The notes beneath the pieces are model-generated. The model was not told the origin of the DNA. It saw nothing but the letters and a program-made list of their open reading frames with translations, and ran no database searches. Of a DNA stretch of 14,660 nucleotides, positions 676-2,799 are shown in pieces. Made by a program: the position numbers and the translations under genes. This DNA comes from an uncultured archaeon (GTDB lineage Archaea > Asgardarchaeota > Lokiarchaeia > Sigyniarchaeales > SOKP01). Within the stretch, counting starts at the first letter, position 1. Each line of letters starts with the position of its first letter. The DNA is taken from assembly GCA_964525635.1 (NCBI GenBank), contig CAZGJX010000101.1, positions 1-14,660 on the forward strand, in the 5' to 3' direction.

Positions 676-1324
676 ATGAGTATTTTAGACAATTTATTTA
701 GCCAATATATCTTTATTTTAAAGGAAATTTTATCTAAATTGTATATTGATCAACAAGTTGAGAATATTATTCTACAAATGGAAAAAGAATTTACAAAATT
801 AATAGATTCTGAATTAACCAAGAATGTTACTCTAAAGGATATTAATCAAAAAACACACATAGTAACACCCTGTTTTATGATAGCTCTTTATCGAGTTTTA
901 AATGGAATTCCCTCTATTACCGTTTCTTTAGAACTAATTAGTGATATTATGATGGATGTATTTTAAGAATTTGTTGGACCATTGGTAGAAATGCAAAAAA
1001 CAAGATTAAAAAATGCAAATGATAAATGGAATAAATATAAAGAACAGACTGTTTTTGGAACAAAAAGCACCTATAATTCATTTGATCCCATCTTTGTAAA
1101 AAACAATGAAACTATTCTTGAGTTTCATTTAAAAAAATGCATTTTCTATGATATATTCAAAGCTCATGAAGAAATTCATCTATCTCCAATATTATGCAAT
1201 TATGATAATATCTTTGGCTGATGCTGTAGATGAATGGATCTGCTTTAAAAGGCCTAAAACAATTGCTGATGGAGAGGATTATTGTCAATTTATATATTCC
1301 CCCAAAAAAAGTCAATATAAATGA
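676..1324 (+). pseudogene. Disrupted L-2-amino-thiazoline-4-carboxylic acid hydrolase-like family gene
   Basis: ORFs 676-966 and 982-1221 share one frame, split by TAA at 964-966 (MMDVF*EFVGPLVEMQ). One extra G at 1216/1217 then shifts the frame. The continuation 1217-1324 reads ADAVDEWICFKRPKTIADGEDYCQFIYSPKKSQYK*. The family pattern C-x-F...LC-x-x-D...R-x-x-TIA-x-G-x-x-x-C-x-F is complete across the three pieces. Confidence 0.8.
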
Positions 1325-1385: not shown

Positions 1386-1767
1386 CTAGCTTCCTATTTT
1401 TCTCATTTTTCCACATCTTAAACAGATGATAAAGTGTTTTATGGCTTAAAATGAAAGTATTTTAAGCTGTCATACCCTCATCTGCACTTCTGGTCTGGCG
1501 TGTTTCTAATTGAGCCTTATCATATCCACACTTAGGACATTTAAAATCTTTTATTGTACTTTTTAAATTCTCATCTTTCCATTGTAGTATTTCTTTTGCA
1601 TTAATTATTTCTTCTCTATAAGAATGGGTTATTTTTGTTGATAATTTATAAGCCTCTGATTTTTTTTCAGAAAATATTTTTGAAGCACCACATTTACATT
1701 TAAATATTTTCTTACCATCCTGAGTTGAGGGAACCATAAGACCTCCACATTGATCACAAAATTCCAA
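1386..1767 (-). CDS. tfs: Transcription factor S (TFS/RpoM; TFIIS/RPB9-like), two exons: 1767-1469 and 1437-1386, 116 aa when spliced
   Basis: N-terminal MEFCDQCGGLM...CKCG zinc ribbon and C-terminal CPKCG...QTRSADEGMT. After removal of 31 nt it continues HFIICLRCGKMRKIGS* (TAG at 1388-1386), supplying the last CxxC. TTG start with GGTGAT upstream. Confidence 0.93.
1438..1468 (-). other. 31-nt bulge-helix-bulge (BHB) intron in the tfs mRNA (predicted)
   Basis: Minus strand reads UAUG-ACA-GCUUAAAAU-ACUUUC-AUUUUAAGC-CAUA-AAA-CAC. This gives a 4-bp central helix UAUG/CAUA, two 3-nt bulges (ACA, AAA) on opposite strands and a perfect 9-bp intron stem. Cuts at AC^A and AA^A rejoin to ATG ACA CAC TTT in frame. 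Confidence 0.88.
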
Positions 1768-1821: not shown

Positions 1822-2799
1822 CTAATATTTTAATCCAAAAATTAGTGCACAAAATAAAACACCAACGACAATATCAGCAGTAGTTCCAGGATTCATTTTA
1901 CCTTTTTCATTATGTAGAAATTCATCTAGTTCATTAGTTAATTTTGTTCCTTTTAATGTTTTTAATCCTCCAGAATCTATTACATTTTTTGCTTTTTTTG
2001 AAATTATTTCAGCAGATTTAATACCAGATTTTCTAATAATTAATGTATCTGGGTATTTTGATAAAATATCTAAAAATGTATTTACTATTGCAATGTTTAT
2101 ATCATGGGTTTGATTAAAAATGTTAGTAAAACTTGGTAATCCTTCATGTAAAATAATGTTGAATCCCGTTGAATATTCTTTACTTATCAAATCAGAATCT
2201 TGAGAAATCTCAAAGATTCTTTTTAATGTTATCTGATCCTTTTCAATCTGTTTAATGGAAGTTTTATCATTTAAATCATATTTATCAACTCTTCCAAGCC
2301 CTCCGACATTAGACATTCTAATTGCTTCGTATAGATATTTTGTATCTTGAATTGTTGTATCTTCAATAGTTTTCTTTAAAACTGATTTAAAATCATGAAA
2401 ATATAATCTATTTGTATTTAAACAAATAACTGCGGTGGCAACAAGGGGGGCTAATATTAAAATATGTCCTAAAATAACATTGCCACCATACTGCCATTCA
2501 ATCATTTTCTCAGCAGCATCCCTGAAAAATAAACCTAAATTGACATAGCTGAGATTATCTTTGTTTATTTTGGAATTTTCTCTAATACTTTCACAAAACT
2601 TATTAAAATTAGGTTGTATTGCTGCAATACCTGCTAAAAAATGTTCAAAACGTGTATTTTGGGAATTTTTTGTACGATGAATATTTCCAGGTTTAGGATA
2701 ACCAGAAATTTCTAATAAACTTGACAATATGATACATCTTGCGATATCATCATTGTTTTTAACACTTAAAGGGGAATCCTTGTAAATATTAATTGACAC
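1822..2799 (-). CDS. citG: CitG-family (triphosphoribosyl-dephospho-CoA synthase-like) protein, archaeal type
   Basis: LLE-x-x-x-x-PKPGNIHR, N-x-x-LG-x-x-x-L-x-PL, PDTLI-x-RK-x-G and NPGTTADI motifs. Confidence 0.88.
   Translation of the reverse strand: MSINIYKDSPLSVKNNDDIARCIILSSLLEISGYPKPGNIHRTKNSQNTRFEHFLAGIAAIQPNFNKFCESIRENSKINKDNLSYVNLGLFFRDAAEKMIEWQYGGNVILGHILILAPLVATAVICLNTNRLYFHDFKSVLKKTIEDTTIQDTKYLYEAIRMSNVGGLGRVDKYDLNDKTSIKQIEKDQITLKRIFEISQDSDLISKEYSTGFNIILHEGLPSFTNIFNQTHDINIAIVNTFLDILSKYPDTLIIRKSGIKSAEIISKKAKNVIDSGGLKTLKGTKLTNELDEFLHNEKGKMNPGTTADIVVGVLFCALIFGLKY

What the first reader, a model, noticed from the sequence alone, without database searches (positions are those of the whole stretch)
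1423..1484. Candidate tRNA-endonuclease-type (BHB) intron inside a protein-coding gene (tfs) of a probable Asgard archaeon
Seen in sequence: the TFS ORF stops (TAA 1464-1462) just after QTRSADEGMT. The missing end of the zinc ribbon (HFIICLRCGKMRKIGS*) lies 31 nt further on in another frame. The minus-strand RNA folds as a central 4-bp helix UAUG(1474-1471)/CAUA(1443-1440), 3-nt bulges ACA(1470-1468) and AAA(1439-1437), and a perfect 9-bp intron stem GCUUAAAAU/AUUUUAAGC with a 6-nt loop. Exon-exon pairing is also present: G1475-C1436 plus CAGAUGA(1484-1478)/UCAUCUG(1429-1423), imperfect next to the bulge. Established: archaeal EndA cuts BHB motifs after the second nucleotide of each bulge and RtcB ligates the ends. 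The well-known archaeal mRNA case is cbf5 in Crenarchaeota. Applying that rule removes exactly 1468-1438 and gives ATG-ACA-CAC-TTT, with the normal ADE-x-x-T-x-F-x-x-CxxCG spacing. Inference: this is a spliced mRNA intron in a core transcription gene. I do not know of a described tfs BHB intron, but I could not search the literature.
Basis: partly seen in the sequence, partly recalled or inferred. Interest (0 to 1): 0.95.

Follow-up and report, generated by a model that had tools for sequence, protein, structure and literature searches.

The report
tRNA-type mini-intron in TFS-like gene
A transcription-factor (TFS-like) gene of a Loki-type Asgard archaeon is split by a 31-base insert shaped like a tRNA intron, and comparison with about 120 related genomes indicates that it must be cut out of the messenger RNA, a kind of splicing published for only one archaeal protein gene (cbf5).

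Summary
On the minus strand a TFS-family ORF (1767-1465) stops at TAA 1464-1462. The rest of its zinc ribbon lies 31 nt downstream in another frame. [quoted passage not shown]

Cutting after the second base of each bulge removes 1468-1438. This gives exactly the C-terminus that intron-less orthologues encode without a break.

Fourteen of 135 genomes of the same family, plus environmental contigs, carry a 30-31 nt insert at this site. In these copies:
- 94.7% of the proposed pairs are kept, against 27-51% when the partners are slid.
- Compensatory changes occur in the central helix and the inner stem.
- Exon 2 is under the same purifying selection as in intron-less alleles (pN/pS 0.12 versus 0.14).

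The genome encodes two EndA paralogues and RtcB.

The gene is a conserved TFS paralogue, and a canonical, uninterrupted TFS lies on another contig. Splicing itself could not be shown, because no RNA run was listed.

The same mini-intron design interrupts other genes here and in relatives. This scan already reported the class, including a TFS-paralogue intron, on other DNA. I found no published report.

The parts
1469..1767 (-). Exon 1 of the TFS-like gene. It starts at TTG 1767-1765 and holds the N-terminal zinc ribbon, the first CxxC of the C-terminal TFIIS-type ribbon and the acidic SADE loop. It ends with the first two bases (AC) of the Thr codon.
   Evidence: Pfam Zn_ribbon_TFIIS matches profile positions 1-26 of 39 only, and Zn_ribbon_RPB9 matches 1-29 of 36. 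Intron-less orthologues reach positions 35-36 of 39.
1438..1468 (-). 31-nt BHB intron: the last base of bulge 1, a 9-bp hairpin with a 6-nt loop, the 3' strand of the central helix, and the first two bases of bulge 2. It contains an in-frame TAA (1464-1462) and shifts the frame.
   Evidence: A homologous 30-nt insert sits at the same site in 13 other family genomes and 6 environmental contigs. It is absent, precisely to the base, from 49 orthologous alleles.
1386..1437 (-). Exon 2: the third base of the Thr codon, 16 codons holding the second CxxC of the zinc ribbon, and TAG (1388-1386).
   Evidence: The spliced reading equals the uninterrupted C-terminus of intron-less orthologues. All 64 alleles have an exon 2 of 52 nt with the stop in the same place. 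pN/pS is 0.12 among intron-bearers.
1471..1474 (-). Central 4-bp helix, 5' strand (exon 1, UAUG). It pairs with 1440-1443.
   Evidence: The first pair covaries across relatives (U-A 4, A-U 6, C-G 1, U.G 1, unpaired A/G 7). The other three pairs are kept in 19 of 19 distinct sequences.
1440..1443 (-). Central 4-bp helix, 3' strand (intron, CAUA).
1468..1470 (-). Bulge 1 (ACA). The predicted 5' cut is between C1469 and A1468.
   Evidence: The rule 'cut between the second and third residue of each bulge' is stated in PMC2738675.
1437..1439 (-). Bulge 2 (AAA). The predicted 3' cut is between A1438 and A1437.
   Evidence: The third bulge base varies among relatives (A, G or T) and always completes a Thr codon.
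1444..1467 (-). Inner helix h': a 9-bp stem (1467-1459 with 1452-1444) closed by the loop 1458-1453.
   Evidence: Across 19 distinct sequences 99.4% of cells are paired, and three pairs show changes on both sides.
1475..1485 (-). Outer helix h, 5' strand (exon 1, the Ala-Asp-Glu-Gly codons). G1475 pairs with C1436 and 1485-1478 pair with 1422-1429. G1476 and G1477 face an internal loop.
   Evidence: 90.8% of cells are paired across relatives.
1422..1436 (-). Outer helix h, 3' strand (exon 2, the His-Phe-Ile-Ile-Cys codons).
   Evidence: Intron-bearing alleles average 7.3 of 8 outer pairs, against 6.1 of 8 in intron-less alleles.

Best explanation
This is a genuine archaeal bulge-helix-bulge intron inside the coding sequence of a conserved TFS-family paralogue of a Lokiarchaeia-type (Promethearchaeota) Asgard archaeon.

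Proposed mechanism:
1. The pre-mRNA folds so that the Ala-Asp-Glu-Gly-Met codons of exon 1 pair with the 3' end of the intron and with the Ile-Ile-Cys codons of exon 2. This presents two 3-nt bulges on either side of a 4-bp helix.
2. The heteromeric (alpha-beta)2-type splicing endonuclease EndA cuts after the second base of each bulge.
3. RtcB joins the exons and probably circularises the 31-nt intron.
4. The spliced mRNA encodes the full 116-residue protein with both CxxC pairs of the catalytic zinc ribbon.
5. Unspliced mRNA would give a 101-residue protein lacking the second CxxC pair of that ribbon.

Shown here: the structure, its exact register, its conservation and covariation, selection on exon 2, and the presence of the enzymes. 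Inferred: the cleavage and ligation themselves, and anything about regulation.

The intron sequence is homologous across six genera but patchily present. This points to one old insertion followed by repeated exact losses or allele replacement.
For: 1. Register. Removing 1468-1438 by the published cut rule gives exactly the C-terminus that 49 intron-less orthologous alleles encode continuously, with the same length and the same stop position.
2. Conservation. A covariance model of the motif finds full-length matches (74-97 bits) in 14 of 135 family genomes from six genera. It matches intron-less tfs as 40-nt hits with the intron deleted. Five further environmental contigs, among them one from the marine-sediment metagenome PRJNA259156, also carry the intron.
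3. Structure. In the alignment of 20 sequences 94.7% of cells are paired, against 27-51% when the partners are slid. None of 500 shuffles reaches the covariation score. The inner stem is 99.4% paired with three doubly changed pairs. The first central-helix pair links a synonymous Gly third position to an intron base and occurs as U-A, A-U and C-G.
4. Selection. Exon 2 of intron-bearers has pS 0.78, pN 0.096 and a ratio of 0.12. Intron-less alleles have 0.14.
5. All 30-nt versions carry in-frame stops and the 31-nt version shifts the frame, so none can be read through.
6. Machinery. Two EndA paralogues are present, the better one closest to the 186-residue chains of the A. pernix enzyme (3p1z_B, 3ajv_B). 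RtcB scores 554 bits. Papers report (alpha-beta)2 EndA with the broad-specificity L1 loop in Asgard archaea.
7. No intron-less second copy of this paralogue exists in the genome.
8. The same 1+9+5+9+4+2 design interrupts other genes at homology-exact points.
Against: No RNA evidence was obtained. No RNA run was listed, and two scans of metagenome contigs for spliced junctions found nothing.

The thermodynamic MFE does not contain the central helix. The outer helix is imperfect next to bulge 2: one G-C pair, then an internal loop.

In 7 of 19 distinct sequences the first central-helix pair is an A/G mismatch. These versions are relaxed rather than canonical BHB motifs.

The motif as such is no commoner in the genome than its mirror image.

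Related sequences are not independent, so the shuffle statistics overstate the support.

A canonical TFS elsewhere in the genome means that loss of this paralogue would not necessarily be lethal.
Confidence: 0.88

Rival explanations
1. Decaying gene. An inert hairpin insertion broke a dispensable TFS paralogue. The gene now makes a truncated protein or none, and the downstream piece is a relic.
For: A canonical intact TFS exists at G000:C135, so the paralogue could be dispensable. The G000 copy starts with TTG and has a 31-nt, frame-shifting version of the insert. Public annotation calls truncated proteins of 91-103 residues.
Against: Exon 2 keeps its length, its stop position and pN/pS 0.12 across 15 intron-bearing alleles with pS 0.78, the same as intron-less alleles. 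The insert keeps its BHB geometry with compensatory changes over six genera. A relic would collect indels and stops in the spliced frame, and none is seen.
Confidence: 0.04
2. Translational recoding. Ribosomes bypass the 30-31 nt (hopping as in phage T4 gene 60) or otherwise read across it, with no RNA cutting.
For: A stop codon lies just after the break and a stable hairpin sits in the gap. Both are features of the T4 gene 60 bypass (my own knowledge).
Against: There are no matching take-off and landing codons. The codon before exon 2's His is the variable bulge 2 (AAA, AAG, AAT, AGT, TAT, ACT, TAA or AGA), not ACN. Covariation ties an exon base to an intron base in a 4-bp helix flanked by two 3-nt bulges. 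That is what EndA needs, and a bypass does not need it. The same design occurs in many unrelated codon contexts.
Confidence: 0.03
3. Assembly or sequencing artefact in this MAG.
For: The genome is a fragmented assembly of 245 contigs.
Against: The insert is at the same site in 14 family genomes and in six contigs from independent samples and assemblers. Its sequences have diverged.
Confidence: 0.005

Closest known systems
BHB intron in the cbf5 (pseudouridine synthase) pre-mRNA of Crenarchaeota (Watanabe 2002; Yoshinari 2006; Yokobori 2009, PMC2738675)
   Same: - A short intron inside a protein-coding sequence, recognised through a BHB or BHB-like fold built from exon and intron.
- Cut sites between the second and third bulge residues.
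- A host with a hetero-oligomeric EndA.
- Patchy presence among relatives, implying gain and loss.
   Different: - A different gene (a TFS-family paralogue) and a different phylum (Asgard/Promethearchaeota).
- Here the motif is close to canonical, whereas most cbf5 motifs are described as unconventional.
- The intron is one of many 29-31 nt inserts of a stereotyped design in the same genomes.
- cbf5 splicing was shown experimentally. This case is not.
[quoted passage not shown]
   Same: The same recognition motif and presumably the same enzymes. Asgard genomes are reported to carry many non-canonical tRNA introns and (alpha-beta)2 EndA.
   Different: The substrate is an mRNA, and the exon halves of the motif are constrained by codons. 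Those papers deal with tRNA genes only and do not mention protein-coding introns.
IRE1/RtcB unconventional splicing of HAC1/XBP1 mRNA in eukaryotes
   Same: A spliceosome-independent, protein-endonuclease cut of a short intron (26 nt in XBP1) from an mRNA at paired stem-loops. Ligation uses the tRNA ligase, and removal changes the C-terminal reading frame of a transcription factor (my own knowledge; named in PMC13149111).
   Different: The endonuclease (IRE1) and the recognition motif differ. That splicing is regulated by stress, and no regulation is shown here.

Membership tests
Archaeal BHB (EndA-type) intron | [quoted passage not shown] | tested here: met
   Bulges 1470-1468 and 1439-1437, helix 1474-1471 with 1443-1440. 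The constrained fold is -17.0 against an MFE of -17.3 kcal/mol. In 7 of 19 distinct relatives the first helix pair is A/G, a relaxed form.
Archaeal BHB (EndA-type) intron | Flanking helices h and h' next to the bulges | tested here: met
   h' is a perfect 9-bp stem. h is G1475-C1436, then an internal loop, then a 7-8 bp helix. So h is imperfect next to bulge 2.
Archaeal BHB (EndA-type) intron | Cuts between the second and third bulge residues give a functional joined product | tested here: met
   In silico only. The joined reading equals the uninterrupted sequence of 49 intron-less alleles. The rule is from PMC2738675.
Archaeal BHB (EndA-type) intron | The structure is kept by compensatory change in relatives | tested here: met
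   94.7% of cells are paired against 27-51% when slid. Four pairs show changes on both sides. None of 500 shuffles reaches the covariation score. The alignment was fitted to the model, which leans towards the structure.
Archaeal BHB (EndA-type) intron | The host encodes the splicing endonuclease and the RtcB ligase | tested here: met
   PF01974 hits at G000:C18 (102 bits) and G000:C105 (68 bits). RtcB is at G000:C119 (554 bits). The closest PDB sequences are crenarchaeal EndA chains.
Archaeal BHB (EndA-type) intron | The intron is absent from the mature RNA (cleavage and ligation observed) | not testable with these tools
   No RNA holder was listed. Junction scans of metagenome contigs were empty.
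Transcription factor S (TIGR01384 equivalog) | Score above the curated cut-off of the TFS equivalog model | tested here: not met
   The intron-less orthologue P0003 scores 52.2 bits and exon 1 alone 44.9 bits, against a cut-off of 64.75. The paralogue at G000:C135 scores 81.4 bits. The gene is therefore filed as a TFS-family paralogue, not as the canonical TFS.
Transcription factor S (TIGR01384 equivalog) | An N-terminal Rpb9-type ribbon plus a C-terminal TFIIS-type ribbon with an acidic Asp-Glu loop | tested here: met
   Pfam PF02150 and PF01096 both match. The SADE motif is kept in all alleles.

The most novel reading that the evidence does not exclude
The tfs-paralogue intron is one copy of a genome-wide, still active population of stereotyped mini-introns of about 30 nt. 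They enter protein-coding genes again and again wherever the exon sequence can supply half of a BHB motif. Their removal by EndA/RtcB is a rate-limiting, possibly regulated step, so that unspliced message yields a ribbon-less TFS-like protein. On this reading the closest archaeal relatives of eukaryotes would have a general mRNA-splicing layer with intron gain and loss.
Probability: 0.2. Interest if true: 0.92.

Novelty: new member of a known kind. Interest (0 to 1): 0.78.

Why it matters
Published work documents endonuclease-type splicing of an archaeal coding sequence for one gene only, cbf5 in Crenarchaeota. A second, well-supported case matters for three reasons.
- It lies in a transcription-factor gene of Asgard archaea, the closest archaeal relatives of eukaryotes. 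Sister cases occur in ubiquitin-system, translation and metabolic genes of the same genomes. Together these suggest that mRNA splicing by the tRNA-splicing machinery is routine in this lineage.
- Gene callers and databases truncate these proteins. Here 14 of the 120 best protein clusters end at the intron, including two entries labelled marine sediment metagenome (KKL06221.1, KKN47042.1). This distorts gene inventories that are used to argue about eukaryogenesis.
- The patchy presence among close relatives offers a natural system for studying intron gain and loss in a prokaryote.

Tried and rejected
- RNA evidence. The look-up of sequencing runs listed no RNA holder, so read laying could not be used.
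- Two scans of metagenome contigs for spliced junctions, one for genus g1 and one for the lineage of L072/L137, found nothing.
- cDNA in the protein collection. One 90% cluster holds both 101- and 116-residue forms. The 116-residue forms lie on genomic contigs with the same CitG neighbour and are only 79% identical in DNA. This is a DNA-level presence/absence difference between species, not cDNA.
- Motif enrichment. Strict BHB-like motifs of 28-34 nt number 338 in the genome, against 332 for the mirror-handed control. The motif alone carries no signal in this AT-rich genome. Only motif plus frame rescue plus homology does.
- False positives of my frame-rescue scan: the pheT/pheA gene junction (G000:C2:20283-20246) and G000:C14:11755-11715, plus a spurious hit in L114.
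- Translational bypass was rejected because there are no matching take-off and landing codons.
- The broken plus-strand ORF series at 676-1324 was scanned for BHB motifs that would mend it. None was found.
- The gene tree of 64 alleles is poorly resolved (23 of 61 inner branches open). It gives only a lower bound of 4 and a parsimony count of 11 changes of intron state, and cannot order gains and losses.

Full report
**What is there.** On the minus strand the window holds a TFS-family gene. The ORF runs from TTG 1767 to codon 1467-1465 and stops at TAA 1464-1462. It contains the N-terminal Rpb9-type ribbon, the first CxxC of the TFIIS-type ribbon and the acidic SADE loop. It matches the Pfam TFIIS ribbon only over profile positions 1-26 of 39. 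The second CxxC and the natural end of the protein lie at 1436-1386 in another frame.

Cutting after the second base of each bulge is the rule stated for BHB motifs in PMC2738675. It removes 1468-1438 and joins AC to A, so the reading continues Thr-His-Phe to TAG 1388-1386.

The 78-nt stretch folds better than all 200 shuffles (z -2.9). The minimum-energy fold keeps the outer helix and the 9-bp inner stem but pairs GGGU with ACUU instead of forming the central helix. Forcing the central helix and both bulges costs 0.3 kcal/mol. That cost is small for a structure that a protein clamps.

**Relatives settle the reading.** A search with exon 1 found the orthologue in 122 of 135 genomes of the same family.
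- In 49 distinct alleles the gene is uninterrupted. Its end is, residue for residue in length and nearly so in sequence, what the predicted splice gives here.
- A covariance model built on the motif gave full-length hits of 74-97 bits in 14 family genomes of six genera. Intron-less genes matched as 40-nt hits with the middle deleted.
- Six environmental contigs carry the insert too.
- All versions other than this one are 30 nt long and carry in-frame stops. This one is 31 nt, with one extra loop base, and shifts the frame.

**The structure is conserved, not just the sequence.** Over 20 sequences (19 distinct), 94.7% of the pair cells are standard pairs, against 27-51% when the 3' partners are slid by 1-3 columns. 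No shuffle out of 500 reaches the observed covariation score. The inner stem is paired in 99.4% of cells, and three of its pairs change on both sides.

The most telling pair is the first of the central helix. Its 5' base is the synonymous third position of a Gly codon and its 3' base lies in the intron. They occur as U-A, A-U and C-G. In seven sequences, mostly genus g11, this pair is an A/G mismatch, so those are relaxed motifs. The literature says that the Asgard/TACK type of EndA, heteromeric with the L1 loop, accepts relaxed motifs.

**Exon 2 is still a coding sequence.** Among 15 intron-bearing alleles it has pS 0.78 but pN 0.096 (ratio 0.12). The 49 intron-less alleles give 0.14. All 64 alleles have the same 52-nt exon 2 with the stop in the same place. 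A relic behind a stop codon would not behave so. There is no intron-less second copy of this paralogue in the genome.

**The machinery is present.**
- The genome has two EndA-domain genes of about 200 residues.
- One is closest to the 186-residue chains of the Aeropyrum pernix enzyme and to the Sulfolobus and Pyrobaculum EndA chains.
- The other is more divergent, as expected for a structural subunit.
- It also has one RtcB.

**What gene it is.** NCBIfam places the intron-less orthologue below the TFS equivalog cut-off (52 against 64.75 bits). A second gene at G000:C135:3881-4231 passes it (81 bits), has the usual Trp-containing end and is uninterrupted. So the interrupted gene is a conserved, selected TFS paralogue that keeps the acidic loop. 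It is not the only TFS. Homologues are annotated as Lokiarchaeota or Promethearchaeota, and an L22e-like gene lies nearby, so the Asgard assignment is right.

**History.** The intron sequences of the six genera are alike (same stem core, variable loop), which speaks for one origin. Presence is nevertheless patchy: all four genomes of genus g1, 2 of 7 in g3, 5 of 54 in g11 and none of 42 in g2. On a weakly resolved gene tree the state changes at least 4 and most parsimoniously 11 times. Species whose proteins are 90% identical differ by the exact 30 nt. Intron-bearing alleles use the Ile-Ile-Cys codons that pair best with the Ala-Asp-Glu codons (7.3 against 6.1 of 8 pairs). Some intron-less alleles already pair 8 of 8, so the site seems predisposed.

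**A wider class.** The covariance model also hit a different gene, a ubiquitin-conjugating (E2-like) gene of G055, with a 30-nt insert of the same 1+9+5+9+4+2 layout. Across the family this E2 gene carries such inserts at four different positions, three of them in one copy. Each is removable by the same rule to restore the conserved protein.

A motif-plus-frame-rescue scan of the window's own genome found further cases:
- an E1/ThiF-like gene;
- an AMP/thymidine phosphorylase gene;
- a POR-family oxidoreductase gene;
- aIF2-gamma.

For the first three, the downstream exon starts in the middle of its Pfam profile. In all four, the joined reading restores a recognisable conserved motif.

Notes of this scan report the same class many times, including in this genome and for a TFS paralogue in two other genomes. 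One note reports environmental RNA with the insert removed from another gene. I did not check those notes and they are not counted as support.

**Literature.** Six full-text searches found no report of BHB introns in Asgard protein genes and none combining TFS, intron and BHB. The Asgard intron papers concern tRNA genes. PMC2738675 states that pre-mRNA splicing had been confirmed only for cbf5, with other cases merely predicted. The library lacks most subscription journals.

**Limits.**
- Splicing is inferred. No RNA run was listed, and junction scans of metagenome contigs were empty.
- The motif by itself is as common as its mirror image in this AT-rich genome.
- Related sequences are not independent, and the alignment used for pair counts was fitted to the model.
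- Whether splicing is complete, regulated or slow is unknown.

Noticed in passing
L090 (G055:C201) 590-626 plus; L092 (G118:C91) 1733-1697 and 1430-1394 minus, plus a third insert between them; L106 (G130:C12) 1724-1688 minus; L112 (G021:C72) 1725-1688 minus; L107 (G128:C86) about 1677-1701 plus: A highly conserved E2-like (ubiquitin-conjugating) gene carries 29-31 nt BHB mini-introns at four different positions in different genomes of the family. The copy in G000 (C178:3526-4038 minus) is intact. One copy has three inserts, and one of these has a poor central helix. Each removal restores the conserved protein.
   Followed up: partly
G000:C178:561-597 plus (L142); G000:C109:3101-3065 minus (L143); G000:C6:7451-7487 plus (L144); G000:C142:4701-4666 minus: Four further mini-introns in the window's own genome. 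They split an E1/ThiF-like gene in its GxGxxG motif, an AMP/thymidine phosphorylase gene in its DKHSTGG motif, a POR-family oxidoreductase gene, and the P-loop of aIF2-gamma. For the first three, the Pfam match of the downstream exon starts mid-profile (positions 32, 11 and 29).
   Followed up: partly
window 676-1324, plus strand: Three consecutive ORFs (676-966, 982-1221, 1148-1324) read like one gene broken by an in-frame TAA at 964-966 and a frame shift near 1215-1222. No BHB motif that would mend it was found. It may be a pseudogene, or another kind of recoding or an error.
   Followed up: partly
window 1738-1767, minus strand: The TFS paralogue starts with TTG here, where relatives have ATG. 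The public protein for this locus (91 residues) starts at a later ATG and so also loses the first CxxC of the N-terminal ribbon. It is therefore truncated at both ends.
   Followed up: partly
window 1822-2799 minus, and loci L120-L141: The order CitG-like gene, TFS paralogue, then a PF1765-like gene on the other strand is kept in all environmental contigs looked at. In the window, the broken ORF series at 676-1324 lies between the TFS paralogue and the DUF167-like gene at 315-614.
   Followed up: no
L083 (G120:C231) 1501-1556: A weak hit of the covariance model (29.7 bits) to an AT-rich hairpin just beside a tRNA gene. It is probably only the hairpin part of the model.
   Followed up: no
G000:C4:30199-30163 minus; G000:C22:19092-19054 minus; G000:C76:5343-5380 plus; G000:C136:6793-6829 plus; G000:C1:45749-45711 minus: GC-richer BHB-like motifs of 30-32 nt from the genome-wide motif list. 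They were not examined for what they interrupt and may be further introns in RNA or protein genes.
   Followed up: no
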